From Candidatus Marinacidobacterales bacterium (GTDB lineage Bacteria > Acidobacteriota > Vicinamibacteria > Marinacidobacterales > SMYC01): DNA of 64,000 nt. Positions within the stretch are counted from its first letter, which is position 1, and the number at the start of each line of letters is the position of its first letter. The notes beneath the pieces are model-generated. The model made no database searches. It saw only the letters and a program-made list of their open reading frames with translations, and was not told where the DNA came from. Of the stretch, positions 38,660-42,179 are shown one piece after another. The stretch is from contig CBDCYI010000011.1 in NCBI GenBank assembly GCA_965224085.1, positions 800,001 through 864,000 of the forward strand, in the 5' to 3' direction. The position numbers and the translations under genes were made by a program.

Positions 38660-39043
38660 ATGAGAATAATCGATCGCGTCCGACCAACTTTGACTGAGGT
38701 TTTACGAAAGAACGAATCGCTTTCGTCCGACCTCAGCGGCGGAGGGTACTGTGCAACGTTCGAGCGTTCCGTCGACGGCGAGCCGTGGGTGCAGGTAAAA
38801 ACCGGCATTTTGAACTTTTTCTATCCAAGCGACGAACCCCCCGTGAAGAAGCTGAAAGCGGCGTCGGTTGAGCTTCCGACAAATGCATCGTGCGTAGACT
38901 GGAAGCCGTGGAGCTACGCGACGTTCGAATTCGAACCAGTGACCGCCGAGGAACTCGCCGAAACGGTGGAGCTTCTCTTTGTGAGGCTTTATGGATTTCC
39001 AGACGACCTCGAGCTTTCGTGCGAGTCGTCCGACATGCGCTGA
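38660..39043 (+). CDS. Hypothetical protein
   Basis: Open frame with protein-like composition; start uncertain (38594 or 38660). Confidence 0.5.
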   Translation: MRIIDRVRPTLTEVLRKNESLSSDLSGGGYCATFERSVDGEPWVQVKTGILNFFYPSDEPPVKKLKAASVELPTNASCVDWKPWSYATFEFEPVTAEELAETVELLFVRLYGFPDDLELSCESSDMR

Positions 39044-39064
39044 GCCGAACGACCTTTATCTTCG

Positions 39065-39236
39065 CGACTGCGACCGAGACGGCTGCTCCGCCCTTCGCAA
39101 GCACGCGCGCGGCGTTGAGCCCCGTGTAGCCGCTTCCGATAATCGCGACATCCGCCCGCTCCGGCCAGTCGACCGTGACCGGCAGGTCGTCCGGCCGCGG
39201 GAATCGACTGCGCCAAAAGGGCTCCGTACTGAGCAC
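39065..39236 (-). pseudogene. N-terminal shard of a FAD-dependent oxidoreductase (DAO/PuuB-like)
   Basis: PFW...ADVAIIGSGYTGLNAARVLAKGG.V.V, then the similarity ends. Confidence 0.7.
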
Positions 39237-39658
39237 GTCACAGATCCTAGGCGATGCCGTGCGGGACCACCACCTCTCATCCGACCGCGCGCCGGCTGCC
39301 GAGCCTCATTTAGATCCCGTGTTATTCGGATTCGCAGCCAGGGTACTGTGTCCGGAACGAGTTCGCTAAGGAGCTGGGCGAGTTTTCCGGTCGTCGGGAA
39401 AAACTCAACGACGTCCATCACGACGTCTCGGTATAAAATCGAGTTCATGACGAGATTCGAAGCGCGCTTCGGGAGTCGTGAGCTCTTCCCGAACCTCGAA
39501 TCACGCGCCTATTTGAACCACGCGGCGATGTCGCCTTTGTCGCTTGCCGTGTGCGAGGCGATGCGTGCATGCATGGACGATTACGGCCGACGAGGTCTCG
39601 GTGCGTTCTTCTCGTGGCACGAGCAACGGAAGCGGCTGAAAGACAAGCTAGCAACATA

Positions 39659-39784
39659 GACTCCTCAATCAACACCTTTCTCAAAAAAGTCTTCCTCAGA
39701 CATACGGTGACGAGGTCTCGGTGGGTCAGAGCTGCATATCTGGACTCCTCAATCAACACCTTTCTCAAAAAAGTCTTCCTCAGA
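39659..39784. repeat. Perfect 42-bp direct repeat duplicating the IS right end
   Basis: GACTCCTCAATCAACACCTTTCTCAAAAAAGTCTTCCTCAGA at 39659-39700 and 39743-39784. Confidence 0.95.
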
Positions 39785-39814
39785 GCTGCTCGTCCAAATC
39801 GGTGACGAGTGGGT

Positions 39815-39995
39815 CAGACTGCAAACATATCTACGGCCTCAGTGAGGAGCGTCTTGGGTGCTCCGGGCCATGACGGAAAATCCGCGCGCGAGGAGCCAAT
39901 CACTTTGAGCGACCTCTGAGGGCCAGTGTTGCTATCGGCTTGACCCCGCGCCGGTCCGACCGGTACGCCATCAGTTGGATGGGTATCGTCGCAGC
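39815..39995 (-). ncRNA. Putative bridge/seek RNA of the IS1111 element (boundaries approximate)
   Basis: Contains segments matching the flanking target (TAGCAACACT, CACT) and the donor junction (TCCCATCA-like, CATATCT), separated by short stems. Confidence 0.75.
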
Positions 39996-40036
39996 CTCTG
40001 TTGGAAGGGAAGAAGGAAAACACGAAAGTGGAGCCT

Positions 40037-41055
40037 CTATGCGGCCGCGGGCACCGACTGGAATTCACTCTCGCGGGTGGAGACGGCCCAGACTATCCGG
40101 GCGAGTTTGTCGCGAGCGGTCCCCGCGAGCGGTGGCGGACCTTCCGCGCCCAGGCGCGGAGCTTGTCGGGCGGGCTCTTGCTGACGTTGGCCGCTCGGAG
40201 CACGGCGCGTCCGCCCTGCGTGAGGAGCGTACGGAGGTAGGAGTCGCCACGCTTGGTGATGCGCCCGAGGCGGCGAATGTCACCACTGGAGTTCTCTTTG
40301 GGAACGAGGCCGAGGTAACTCGAGAAGCGGCGTCCCGATGGGAAGCGGCGCAGATCCCCAACGAAGCCGACGATGGCGGTCGCGGTCAGAAGTCCGATGC
40401 CGGGAATGGTGAGAAGTCGTTGCACCTCAGGAAGCTGCTTGGCGAGCGCCTTGAGCTCGTGCTCGATGCCAGCGCACTTGTCCTTGAGCTCTCGAATCTC
40501 GGAGCACGCATCACGCAGGTGCGGACGGAGCACGTCGGGCAAATCAGAATCAGCGTCTTCGACGAGCTCGGAGATGGCGGGCACGACGAAGTGAGCGCCC
40601 TTGGGGATGAAGAGTCCGAGCTCGCGCAGGATCCCGCGTACGGCATTGATGCGTGCGGTCCGTGTGGAGAGCCATCCTGAGCGTAGGCGATGGAGCGCGG
40701 CGAGGGTGTGCTGGCGCACGGACTTGATGGGCACCGAAAGAATCTCCTCGTTCCGGTAAGCCTCGAGCAAAGCTTTGGTGTCCGCGCGGTCGTTCTTGCT
40801 CCCGCGTCGATACGGCCTTACGAGGTGAGGTGGGAGCAGGACGACGTCGTGTCCCAACCGTCGCAACGTCCTTGCCCAAAAGTGAGCCGAGCCGCAGGCT
40901 TCGAGAAGCACGGTGGCAGCGCTCTGTTTCGCAAAAAACGACACCAACTTGGGTCGACTCACACGGAGTTGCTTGGACACTTTCCCCGCTTCGCGCGAGA
41001 TGGCAATCTCGAAGACGTTCTTTGCAAGATCCACAGCGATCGTCGTATCTTTCAT
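40037..41055 (-). CDS. IS110 DEDD recombinase; C-terminus frameshifted near 40110-40135
   Basis: VDLAK, LEAC, KNDRADT, IPGIG and GLVP.ENSSG motifs; the terminal KLARIVWAV...AAA* lies in another frame. Confidence 0.92.
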
Positions 41056-42131
41056 TCGGACTCCTCCTTTTTCGATGCGTTCTTTCGACTGACTTTGGCA
41101 CATCGATGCCGTCTATGTCAGCGGAGGAGTCCATCCCATCACTCGTCGGGGGAGGCCCCTAGGATCTTGCCTTCGTTTCGAGCACCACGGAGGGGCTCGT
41201 CAAAGTGGCGCTTTGTTTTCCATGGAGAAAAGGTGACCGCATCGTTGTTTTCGACGGTGAGTTCCCGACGAACGTCACCCCCTGGCAACGCGCGGCGAAG
41301 CTTTACGAGCTCGAGATCGTCATGCTTTCGGCGGCCGAGTTTCGCGAGGACGAAGAGCGGGCTCTCGCGAATTTTTCGGAAGCGCTCGAGCGAGGCATCC
41401 GTCTCGTTGCTGTGAGCACCGTCGAGTTTCAGACGGGCTTCCGCATGCCTGTCGTCGAGTTGAGCCGTCGGTGTCATGCGGCCGGGGCCCAGATTTGCGT
41501 GGACGCGATTCAAGGTCTCGGCGTGGTGCCGATGGATGTGGTGGCCGAAGGTACCGACTACCTCGTATGCGGCAGCCACAAGTGGATGATGGCCATCGAC
41601 GGGATTGCCTTCGTGTACGCGGCCGCGGACAAGGCGGCAGCTTTGCGTCCACACGTCGCGGGATGGCTCAGCCACGAGAGTCCGGTCGCGTTCTTGCTCG
41701 AAGGCCCCGGGAATTTGCGCTACGACCGGCCCATTCGTTCGGGCATCGACTTTTTCGAGTCGGGGAGCTTCAGCACGGTCGGTTGTGCCGCTCTCGAAGC
41801 TTCACTCGATCTGCTGCTTCAGCTGTCTCCCGAAGCGATCTTCGACCACGTGAACGACTATCTCGATGCGCTCGAGCCGAAGCTCGTGGAGCTCGGTTTC
41901 GAGAGCTTGCGCTCGGCGAAGCGCGAGCAGCGGTCGGGGATTTTAAGCTTGGCACCTCCCGCGAATATCGACGTCATGGCGATCCAAAAGGCGATCGGGG
42001 AGGCGGGCATCTTCTGTACGGCTCCGGACGGATATCTGCGCTTTTCGCCGCACTGGCCAAACGCGCTCGATGAGATAGAGTACGTGGTGGCGAGCGTCGA
42101 AGCTTCGATCGCCGTAGCATCGAGGGGTGCT

Positions 42132-42179
42132 CACTGATGCACGGATGTATTGATGCACTGATGCACTGATACAATGATT
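42132..42179. repeat. Six degenerate tandem octamers (CACTGATG)
   Basis: cactgatg cacggatg tattgatg cactgatg cactgata caatgatt. Confidence 0.8.

What the first reader, a model, noticed from the sequence alone, without database searches (positions are those of the whole stretch)
39649..41150. IS1111 element whose bridge/seek-RNA guides can be read directly and match this insertion
Seen: the reconstructed empty site is CTAGCAA-CA-CTCGTC and the donor junction (using the inner right end) is ATCCCAT-CA-TATCTGG. The minus-strand non-coding region carries four segments in 5'-3' order. UAGCAACACU (39934-39925) is 10/10 identical to the target across the core. AGUG (39904-39901) is complementary to CACT. 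UUCCGUCA (39878-39871) is 6/8 to the donor left, with both differences wobble-compatible. AGAUAUG (39832-39826) is 7/7 complementary to CATATCT. Short stems separate the guide pairs. Known: this left-target, right-target, left-donor, right-donor layout around a 2-nt core matches IS110 bridge RNA architecture. Inference: a natural CA-core programmable recombinase orthologue sitting at an on-target site. Circularisation would also create a TATGAT -10-like hexamer across the core.
Basis: partly seen in the sequence, partly recalled or inferred. Interest (0 to 1): 0.78.

Follow-up and report, generated by a model that had tools for sequence, protein, structure and literature searches.

The report
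IS1111-family element with its guide RNA
This is a damaged copy of a known kind of jumping gene (IS1111 family) whose own small RNA spells out the DNA site it inserts into, which makes it a clean but ordinary new example of RNA-guided transposition.

Summary
All four RNA segments are at the stated coordinates, and the element is an IS1111-type member of the IS110 family: DEDD transposase, subterminal inverted repeats and a roughly 300-nt non-coding region 3' of the gene.

The genome holds 7 full-length copies and many fragments. All 11 left-end junctions end in AGTG (7 of 11 in TCAAGTG). The right-end junctions that abut host DNA start TGTTGCT or a one-mismatch variant. These flanks match the two strands of the RNA's target loop.

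Across relatives, both target-loop strands track the flanks (14 distinct guide pairs; 0 of 20000 permutations each). The segment AGAUAUG tracks the right end (39 of 43 loci exact; 0 of 20000). A covariance model finds the RNA in 50 of 54 related loci and next to ISPa25-type transposase genes, and its stems show compensatory changes.

Three points fall short.
- The "left donor guide" UUCCGUCA does not covary with the left end. It sits in a conserved intramolecular helix with an upstream UGAUGG.
- The junction hexamer TATGAT has no usable -35.
- This copy's transposase is frameshifted, and the copy carries an extra right-end fragment.

RNA expression was not shown. Verdict: a new member of a known kind, of modest interest.

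The parts
39447..39656 (+). 5' part of the interrupted host gene (class-V aminotransferase). It ends in the target half-site CTAGCAA plus the core CA (39655-39656).
   Evidence: The frame continues at 41142. The downstream part matches PF00266 from profile position 65.
39657..39734 (-). Extra, rearranged right-end fragment peculiar to this copy. It holds a 42-nt exact repeat of the right-end piece (39659-39700 = 39743-39784), has a terminal extension 4 nt short, and includes a 34-nt spacer that contains an 18-nt near-copy of host sequence 39589-39606.
   Evidence: repeats D1 and D2; other copies lack it.
39735..39736 (-). Core dinucleotide at the canonical right end (CA on +, TG on the element strand).
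39737..39750 (-). Right end: terminal extension (AGATA on the element strand) and the right subterminal inverted repeat (element strand GAGGAGTCCA).
39811..39978 (-). Structured non-coding RNA (bridge/seekRNA), as matched by covariance model R1.
   Evidence: 154.9 bits; compensatory changes in the stems.
39968..39973 (-). UGAUGG, the 5' strand of helix P0, which pairs with CCGUCA of the 'left donor guide'.
39925..39934 (-). 5' strand of the target-binding loop, UAGCAACACU. It is complementary to the element-strand target AGTGTTGCTA (core plus right flank).
39901..39908 (-). 3' strand of the target-binding loop, UCAAAGUG. It has the same sense as the left flank TCAAGTG (left flank plus core).
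39871..39878 (-). UUCCGUCA, a candidate left-end (donor) guide and also the 3' strand of helix P0.
39826..39832 (-). AGAUAUG, the 3' donor guide. It has the same sense as the right-end extension plus core.
40093..41055 (-). Transposase gene of this copy, with a frameshifted 3' end. Intact paralogues give 344 aa from the ATG behind the Shine-Dalgarno (360 aa from an upstream ATG).
40111..40140 (-). Lesion in the transposase gene, a net loss of 16 nt with local replacement relative to the six other full copies.
   Evidence: alignment block 1001-1100.
41058..41067 (-). GGAGGAGUCC, which overlaps the Shine-Dalgarno and is complementary to the left subterminal repeat.
41123..41139 (-). Left end: the left subterminal inverted repeat (element strand TGGACTCCTCC) and the terminal extension ATGGGA.
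41140..41141 (-). Core dinucleotide at the left end (CA on +, TG on the element strand).
41142..42137 (+). 3' part of the interrupted class-V aminotransferase gene, with an in-frame TAG at 41160-41162.

Best explanation
Window 39737-41139, plus one core dinucleotide, is a copy of an IS1111-type insertion sequence of the IS110 family on the minus strand. It sits inside a class-V aminotransferase gene of a sponge-associated acidobacterium.

The roughly 300-nt region 3' of the transposase gene encodes a structured RNA of about 165 nt with two arms.

First arm (two covarying stems, an internal loop and an apical hairpin): this is the target-binding loop.
- Its 5' strand, UAGCAACACU, pairs with the element-strand target over the core TG and the right flank.
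- Its 3' strand, UCAAAGUG, pairs with the opposite strand over the left flank and the core.

Second arm: it sits in a multi-branch loop. The 3' flank of that arm, AGAUAUG, pairs with the right end plus core. The 5' flank, UUCCGUCA, can pair with core plus left end.

Inferred, not shown here: the DEDD recombinase bound to this RNA brings the circularised element (right end, TG, left end) and the target together and exchanges strands at TG, as shown for IS621 and for ISEc11, ISPa11 and ISKpn4.

This copy cannot supply its own enzyme because its transposase gene is frameshifted. At most it could be moved in trans by the intact paralogues in the genome.
For: Family. Pfam PF02371 (E 9.9e-26) and PF01548 (E 5.3e-11). 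NF033542, 306.5 bits against a cut-off of 140. The motif GLVPKENSSG is present in the protein. The subterminal repeats and the 3' non-coding region are seen.

Own genome. 25 matches, of which 7 are full length. 11 of 11 left-end junctions end in AGTG, and 7 of 11 in TCAAGTG. Of 19 right-end junctions found with the probe, 4 start TGTTGCT and 3 are one-mismatch variants. The window's outer end also abuts TTGCTAG.

Specificity. The 10-mer site occurs 19 times in the genome, 17 of them inside copies of the guide gene itself.

Covariation with flanks. 30 loci gave all four pieces, with 14 distinct guide pairs. The 5' guide scores 7.36 of 8 against its own flank and 5.13 against other flanks. The 3' guide scores 4.07 of 6 against 2.49. 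In each test 0 of 20000 permutations reached the observed sum.

Donor 3' guide. In 39 of 43 loci the first 5 nt equal the right-end extension, over 8 different 5-mers, and 0 of 20000 permutations reached the observed sum.

Structure. RNAalifold finds compensatory changes in 10 of 25 pairs. Model R1 matches 50 of 54 related sources. On that alignment 82.6% of cells pair, against 63.7% in shuffles, and 31 of 38 pairs change on both sides. The covariation score is 0.489 against 0.166, with 0 of 500 shuffles as high, and slid controls pair at 34-46%.

Link to tested elements. R1 matches 46 nt downstream of ISPa25-family and related transposase genes (97.6 and 84.6 bits). This is the group for which PMC11187229 (section 9) reports seekRNAs.

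Literature. The strand order agrees with PMC11187229 (section 9). The donor nucleotides lie in a multi-loop, as PMC11208160 (passage in section 12) describes for many IS1111 orthologues.
Against: No transcript was shown. No minus-strand promoter-like or terminator-like site was found.

Rfam 15 has no matching family.

The single-sequence fold is not better than shuffles (z -1.18 and -1.25).

The 5' donor segment does not covary with the left end. The observed sum was 88 against a permuted mean of 87.9, and 593 of 5000 permutations reached the observed sum in the wider, gap- and wobble-tolerant test. Instead it covaries with an upstream RNA segment.

For ISEc11 an 82-nt seekRNA sufficed for movement (PMC11187229, section 10). 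The donor arm may therefore be dispensable in this family.

The alignment used was fitted to the model's structure, which favours that structure.

In the window copy only AGTG of the 3' target guide matches the left flank.
Confidence: 0.88

Rival explanations
1. SeekRNA-only model. Only the first arm (the target loop) guides DNA recognition. The ends of the element are recognised by the protein through the subterminal repeats. UUCCGUCA is simply a strand of a scaffold helix (P0), not a donor guide.
For: P0 pairs in 92.6% of cells, with a G-C to C-G swap in a 33:10 ratio and 0 of 500 shuffles as high. In L063-L077 the RNA pair swaps while the left-end DNA keeps TGATGG. No covariation between this segment and the left end was found. 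The 82-nt seekRNA of ISEc11 sufficed for movement (PMC11187229, section 10).
Against: The other donor segment, AGAUAUG, tracks the right end in 39 of 43 loci. A pure scaffold role does not explain this. In several lineages UUCCGUCA-type segments match the left end beyond the six P0 positions, for example rows L082, L089, L028 and L048. PMC11208160 (section 12 passage) reports donor-complementary nucleotides in IS1111 RNAs.
Confidence: 0.25
2. The conserved non-coding region acts as DNA rather than RNA, for example as protein-binding sites or an internal end. The matches to the flanks are then by-products of end sequences repeated inside the element.
For: The 3' donor segment is a DNA copy of the right end plus core. 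The upstream UGAUGG copies the start of the left end. Tandem and nested right-end fragments are common in this genome. For ISPpu9, modules bounded by internal end-like boxes form circles of their own (PMC12288879, abstract only).
Against: 31 of 38 stem pairs show changes on both sides that keep pairing. That pattern is expected for RNA, not for protein-binding DNA. The target-loop strands match host flanks, not element ends.
Confidence: 0.04
3. The complementarity is due to chance, and the flank consensus reflects only the repeat family into which the element happened to spread.
For: Several copies lie in one repeat family (…CTTCCGCCATCAAGTG), so the copies are not independent samples.
Against: The window copy lies in a gene, not in that repeat, and still matches the 5' guide 10 of 10. 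The 14 guide pairs in relatives follow their own different flanks.
Confidence: 0.01

Closest known systems
ISPa25, ISKpn4 and ISPst6 (IS1111 family, the group found in integron attC sites), with their seekRNAs as described in PMC11187229
   Same: The closest named transposase is the ISPa25 family, at 47.4% identity over 94% of the protein. Model R1, built from the acidobacterial RNAs, matches 46 nt downstream of these transposase genes at 97.6 and 84.6 bits. The layout is the same: subterminal repeats, a 3' non-coding region, and the guide that pairs with the top strand lying 5' of the guide that pairs with the bottom strand (PMC11187229, section 9).
   Different: The host is an uncultured sponge-associated acidobacterium. 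The target is a different sequence: the left flank ends TCAAGTG and the right flank starts TGTTGCTA. No integron integrase above cut-off was found in this genome. All four guide segments here spell the core as TG.
ISEc11 (IS1111 family), tested experimentally in PMC11187229
   Same: The 3' non-coding region is needed for movement, the seekRNA co-purifies with the transposase, and natural and engineered retargeting work by changing the two loop strands (sections 7, 9 and 10 read).
   Different: ISEc11 forms a junction promoter with both -35 and -10 (Fig. 2 legend). Here only a -10-like TATGAT forms. No experiment exists for this element.
IS621 bridge RNA (IS110 group), PMC11208160 and PMC11208158
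   Same: The RNA has two loops, each with a longer 5' strand (8-10 nt) and a shorter 3' strand (4-7 nt) that pair with opposite DNA strands and overlap at a 2-nt core. A discontinuous (bulged) pairing is also reported there for the RDG (section 7 passage).
   Different: In IS621 the RNA lies 5' of the gene, in the left end, and its subterminal repeats are only 2-3 bp. Here the RNA lies 3' of the gene and the repeats are 10-11 bp. The strand order is reversed relative to the gene, and the donor nucleotides lie in a multi-branch loop. Protein similarity to the solved IS621 and ISCro4 structures is limited to the C-terminal domain (E about 5e-8).
ISPpu9 of Pseudomonas putida (PMC12288879, abstract and outline only)
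   Same: An IS110-family element with an RNA gene downstream of the transposase gene. It inserts in repeats, and separate modules are found elsewhere in the genome.
   Different: Ssr9 was reported as not required for ISPpu9 transposition. Whether the right-end fragments seen here arise from modular circles was not tested.

Membership tests
IS110 family (DEDD RNA-guided transposases) | Transposase with an N-terminal DEDD/RuvC-like domain (PF01548) and a C-terminal PF02371 domain | tested here: met
   PF01548 E 5.3e-11 and PF02371 E 9.9e-26. NF033542, 306.5 bits against a cut-off of 140.
IS110 family (DEDD RNA-guided transposases) | Site-specific insertion without a target duplication beyond a shared core dinucleotide | tested here: met
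   TG (CA on +) lies at both junctions, with a conserved flank consensus; the host frame is restored when one core copy is kept.
IS1111 group | Subterminal inverted repeats of about 7-17 bp with asymmetric terminal extensions | tested here: met
   TGGACTCCTCC and GGAGGAGTCCA (11 bp in relatives, 10 bp in the window copy). The extensions are 6 nt on the left and 4 nt on the right, plus the core. The literature counts 7 and 3 without a core (PMC11187229, introduction), so the count differs by convention.
IS1111 group | The long non-coding region lies downstream of the transposase gene | tested here: met
   about 300 nt separate the stop codon of intact copies from the right end. The left non-coding part is about 85 nt.
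IS1111 group | Transposase of 330-350 aa with the motif GL-P----S(T)G in the C-terminal domain | tested here: met
   GLVPKENSSG. The protein is 344 aa from the ATG behind the Shine-Dalgarno. The criterion comes from PMC11187229, section 6.
Bridge RNA / seekRNA | A structured RNA encoded in the non-coding end and conserved with the transposase | tested here: met
   matched in 50 of 54 sources, with compensatory changes in 31 of 38 pairs.
Bridge RNA / seekRNA | An internal loop whose two strands pair with opposite strands of the target and overlap at the core | tested here: met
Bridge RNA / seekRNA | A second loop whose two strands pair with the two ends of the element (the donor) | tested here: inconclusive
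   The 3' strand meets the criterion (39 of 43). The 5' strand is complementary to the left end but shows no covariation with it, and it pairs inside the RNA.
Bridge RNA / seekRNA | The RNA is expressed, binds the recombinase and is required for recombination | not testable with these tools
   The only RNA-library data held were assembled contigs, which do not inform on this.
Rfam families | A match to a curated covariance model | tested here: not met
   the only match in 39000-42000 is a weak group II intron hit outside the element (E 0.42, below gathering score). Rfam 15 appears to hold no model for this RNA.

The most novel reading that the evidence does not exclude
The RNA carries its own mimic of the left end. 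A conserved upstream UGAUGG pairs with the 5' donor segment in helix P0, which is pseudoknotted with the closing helix. This pairing masks the segment until the left-end DNA (TGATGG…) displaces it. It would be a built-in switch that gates donor binding, or that separates excision from insertion, in IS1111-type bridge RNAs.

A parallel layer may act on translation. The left subterminal repeat also pairs with the Shine-Dalgarno region of the transposase mRNA, and this pairing is kept by compensatory changes in 19 of 22 relatives. The same 10 nt would then serve DNA-end recognition and translational control.
Probability: 0.2. Interest if true: 0.55.

Novelty: new member of a known kind. Interest (0 to 1): 0.3.

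Why it matters
RNA-guided IS110 and IS1111 recombinases are being developed as programmable genome-insertion tools. This element adds a TG-core (CA on the + strand) orthologue from an uncultured sponge-associated acidobacterium.

Its relatives provide a natural retargeting series: 14 guide pairs follow 14 sets of flanks, and 8 right-end variants are followed by the 3' donor segment. That is useful as a design and benchmark set.

The mechanism and the family are already published, and large surveys of such RNAs exist.

Two points may be new and testable. The conserved helix P0 involves the presumed left-donor guide, and the left subterminal repeat pairs with the Shine-Dalgarno region. I could not establish whether either is in print.

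Tried and rejected
Rfam: no family matched the element.

Single-sequence folding: the energies are not better than shuffles, so structure support rests on the comparative data only.

Public RNA libraries. Four runs on record as RNA hold parts of the element, as assembled contigs at depth 2-8. The contigs cover parts of the transposase gene and both ends and run into flanks of other copies. None covers 39870-40247. Contigs cannot show ends, strand or level, and DNA can be present in such libraries. Nothing can therefore be said about expression of the RNA, and I draw nothing from the uncovered part.

Promoter and terminator scan: nothing on the minus strand.

Junction promoter: TATGAT forms, but the best -35 at 15-19 nt has 2 of 6 matches and there is no TG motif. 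The claim is not supported and not excluded.

Left-donor-guide covariation: not significant.

Integron hypothesis for the target: no integron integrase above cut-off in this genome, with the best hit at 96.6 bits against a cut-off of 265. I therefore do not call the target an attC site, although the flanks of relatives look like attC cores.

Empty sites. There are only 2 exact 10-mer sites outside IS copies, and 5 repeat-family sites with 2-3 mismatches. No perfect empty repeat-family site was found.

Origin of the extra right-end fragment and of the tandem or nested right-end pieces: described but not explained. I considered recombination between the right end and the DNA that encodes the 3' donor segment. 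The junction does not fit exactly, because 4 nt are missing and 1 nt is added.

I did not use structure prediction, complex prediction, the large protein searches or the protein atlas. The family assignment did not need them.

Supplementary files of the papers were not opened. Supplementary figures of PMC11187229 (seekRNA folds for ISPa25, ISKpn4 and ISPst6) and tables of PMC11208160 (predicted IS1111 bridge RNAs) may already show helix P0 or this RNA class.

The search (IS1111, ribosome binding site, stem-loop, subterminal inverted repeats; 10 papers, listing only) and the passages shown did not show the repeat/Shine-Dalgarno pairing. That is not proof that it is unpublished.
Full report
**What is in the window.**
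The minus strand of 39737-41139 carries an insertion sequence bounded on both sides by the dinucleotide CA (TG on the element strand). Its largest open frame (40093-41103, 336 aa) matches Pfam PF02371 (E 9.9e-26) and PF01548 (E 5.3e-11). The intact paralogue scores 306.5 bits against NCBIfam NF033542, 'IS110 family RNA-guided transposase', whose cut-off is 140. The closest named relative in the plasmid collection is an ISPa25-family transposase at 47.4% identity. The solved IS621 and ISCro4 transposases match only in the C-terminal domain (E about 5e-8).

The element has subterminal inverted repeats, TGGACTCCTCC near the left end and its complement near the right end. The repeat is 10 bp in the window copy and 11 bp in relatives. 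The terminal extensions are asymmetric, and about 300 nt of non-coding DNA lie between the stop codon of intact copies and the right end. The protein carries GLVPKENSSG, which fits the GL-P----S(T)G motif. It is 344 aa from the ATG behind the Shine-Dalgarno, within the 330-350 aa given for IS1111 transposases (criteria from PMC11187229, section 6). These are the features that define the IS1111 group.

**The observation.**
- The 10-mer TAGCAACACT occurs once in the window, against 0.03 expected from shuffles.
- Joining the host flanks over one core copy keeps the frame of a class-V aminotransferase gene. The downstream part matches PF00266 from profile position 65 (E 2.1e-31). The reconstructed empty site is therefore sound.

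**State of this copy.**
The window copy is 1409 bp, against 1425-1426 bp for the other six. The difference is a local replacement with a net loss of 16 nt near the 3' end of the transposase gene (about 40111-40140). It shifts the frame and removes the conserved C-terminal helix. Five copies elsewhere in the genome have an open 360-aa frame, two more are open over residues 7-360, and one has an internal TGA.

The window copy also carries 78 extra nt (39657-39734) between the canonical right end and the host flank. This stretch holds a second, identical 42-nt piece of the right end and a 34-nt spacer that includes an 18-nt near-copy of host sequence 39589-39606.

A probe for the left end finds 11 junctions. 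All 11 are preceded by AGTG, and 7 of 11 by TCAAGTG. A probe for the right end finds 19 junctions.
- 4 are followed by TGTTGCT.
- 3 are followed by one-mismatch variants.
- The remaining 12 abut sequence of the element itself or other DNA (tandem and nested pieces).
- The window's outer end, which the probe misses because of its 4-nt deletion, abuts TTGCTAG.

Several copies sit in one repeat family (…CTTCCGCCATCAAGTG on the left). The window copy does not, because it lies in a gene. The site AGTGTTGCTA occurs 19 times in the genome: 17 inside copies of the guide gene and 2 elsewhere. No perfect unoccupied repeat-family site was found.

**The RNA.**
The minimum-free-energy fold of the window sequence places UAGCAACAC and CUCAAAGUG on the two sides of one internal loop, between a 7-bp stem and an apical 5-bp stem. 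That fold alone is not better than shuffles. The comparative data carry the weight.

A search with the intact transposase returned 80 loci from named genome records, mostly uncultured Acidobacteriota and also Pseudomonadota. It also returned matches in 7 of 55 genomes of the same order, a count that includes the window's own genome. The central 160 nt of the non-coding region align even at 40-60% protein identity. RNAalifold on 20 sequences gives 25 pairs, 10 of them with compensatory changes.

I built covariance model R1 on my own structure of six helices and 38 pairs. It matched 50 of 54 sources at E 0.001 or better. Three of the four misses are loci whose contig ends within 35 nt of the gene. 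On the resulting alignment:
- 82.6% of cells pair, against 63.7% in shuffles;
- 31 of 38 pairs change on both sides;
- the covariation score is 0.489 against 0.166, with 0 of 500 shuffles as high;
- sliding the partners by 1-3 columns drops pairing to 34-46%.

That alignment is fitted to the model, which favours the structure, and 30 of the 50 matched sequences were not in the seed. The closing helix is the weakest, at 67% paired.

The same model matches 46 nt downstream of an ISPa25-family gene and a related gene on two plasmids (97.6 and 84.6 bits). This is the group for which seekRNAs were reported (PMC11187229, section 9).

**Do the loop strands follow the flanks?**
In 30 loci I could extract both loop strands and both flanks, giving 14 distinct guide pairs.
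- The reverse complement of the 5' strand matches its own right flank at 7.36 of 8 positions on average, against 5.13 for other elements' flanks.
- The 3' strand matches the 6 nt left of the core at 4.07 against 2.49.
- No permutation out of 20000 reached either observed sum.

Two of the 14 pairs (L026 and L029 types) share the same target guides, so they are not independent.

The 3' strand often needs a 1-2-nt bulge, as in the window element (UCAAAGUG against TCAAGTG). A discontinuous pairing is also reported for IS621 (PMC11208160, section 7 passage).

The 5' strand pairs with the element-strand target and the 3' strand with the opposite strand. This is the order reported for IS1111 types and the reverse of IS110 types (PMC11187229, abstract and section 9). 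[quoted passage not shown]

**Donor side.**
The segment AGAUAUG lies just 3' of the second arm. In 43 of 50 related RNAs I could find the right end through the inverted repeat. In 39 of those 43, the first five nucleotides of this segment equal the five-nucleotide extension of the right end. The match holds over eight different 5-mers: AGATA, ATATA, AGACA, ATGTA, ATCTA, ACACA, ATACA and GTATA. The sum was 114 of 120 against 90.3 in permutations, with 0 of 20000 as high (a first, smaller test gave 0 of 5000). This supports a right-end guide.

The segment UUCCGUCA is complementary to core plus left end: 6 of 8 Watson-Crick and 8 of 8 with wobble here, and 8 of 8 Watson-Crick in the 94% relative. 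It does not covary with the left end. The observed sum was 88 against a permuted mean of 87.9, and 593 of 5000 permutations reached the observed sum in a wider, gap- and wobble-tolerant test.

Instead its last six nucleotides pair with an upstream UGAUGG (39968-39973) in a helix that RNAalifold proposed. That helix holds in 92.6% of cells, with a G-C to C-G swap in a 33:10 ratio and 0 of 500 shuffles as high. It was not part of the model structure. In L063-L077 the RNA pair is swapped while the left-end DNA keeps TGATGG.

For ISEc11 an 82-nt seekRNA sufficed for movement (PMC11187229, section 10). [quoted passage not shown] I therefore rate the right-end guide as supported and the left-end guide as open.

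**Core.**
In the window element all four segments and both junctions spell TG. In many relatives the guides spell CG while the left junction reads TG and the right junction CG. In the proteobacterial relatives the left junction reads TA and the right TG. I do not understand this rule.

**Promoter claim.**
The circle junction does contain TATGAT. The hexamers 15-19 nt upstream match TTGACA at no more than 2 of 6 positions, and there is no TG motif. ISEc11 forms a full junction promoter (PMC11187229, Fig. 2 legend). ISPpu9 does not (PMC12288879, abstract).

**Expression.**
Twenty public runs from nine studies hold the element, several of them labelled sponge metagenome. I laid the four runs on record as RNA, which are held only as contigs. 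They do not allow any statement on the RNA.

**Verdict.**
It is a new member of a described family. It is not autonomous in this copy, and one of the four guide assignments remains open. What might be new is helix P0 and the pairing of the left repeat with the Shine-Dalgarno region.

Noticed in passing
window 41058-41067 and 41123-41133 (minus strand); relatives L027-L105: On the mRNA the left subterminal repeat (GGACUCCUCC) pairs with GGAGGAGUCC, which overlaps the Shine-Dalgarno 5 nt before the ATG at 41055. The fold is -33.1 kcal/mol with z -3.51. The same arrangement, kept by compensatory changes (for example GGTCGCCCCT with AGAGGCGACC), is found in 19 of 22 relatives in which my pattern found a left end (28 tried).
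   Followed up: partly
window 39968-39973 with 39871-39876 (minus strand): Conserved helix P0 forms between an upstream UGAUGG, an RNA copy of the start of the left end, and the presumed left donor guide. It is pseudoknotted with the closing helix. It pairs in 92.6% of cells across 50 RNAs and covaries.
   Followed up: partly
window 39657-39734; also G000 C4:1232509-1232928, C5:1163413-1163743, C9:514573-515896, C9:653254-653820: Extra, tandem or nested pieces of the right end and non-coding region. The window's piece has a 4-nt shorter tip and a spacer with an 18-nt near-copy of host sequence 39589-39606. The origin is unexplained.
   Followed up: partly
window 41160-41162: An in-frame TAG lies in the interrupted class-V aminotransferase gene, six codons after the insertion point. 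The gene is probably decaying after disruption.
   Followed up: no
loci L048, L055, L064, L077 and others (right flanks); L136, L137: Relatives with other guides sit next to flanks ending …GTTAGGC or …GTTAGCC, which look like integron attC core sites. The ISPa25-type elements that match the RNA model lie in class 1 integrons. The window genome itself has no integron integrase above cut-off.
   Followed up: partly
G000 C4:1354578, C5:267856, C5:391320, C9:172873, C11:397882 and others: Ten or more copies of a 292-aa tyrosine-recombinase open frame are scattered over the genome. They turned up in the search with the integron-integrase model (96.6 bits, below the 265-bit cut-off) and are probably another mobile element.
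   Followed up: no
relatives: The dinucleotide at the left junction differs from that at the right junction by one transition in many relatives: TG against CG, or TA against TG. The guides spell the right-junction form.
   Followed up: no
G049 and G005: Two genomes of the same order, one of them (G049) in the window genome's family, hold about 20-30 copies of a 94%-identical transposase. Many cluster within a few hundred kb and nearly all lie in the same repeat.
   Followed up: no
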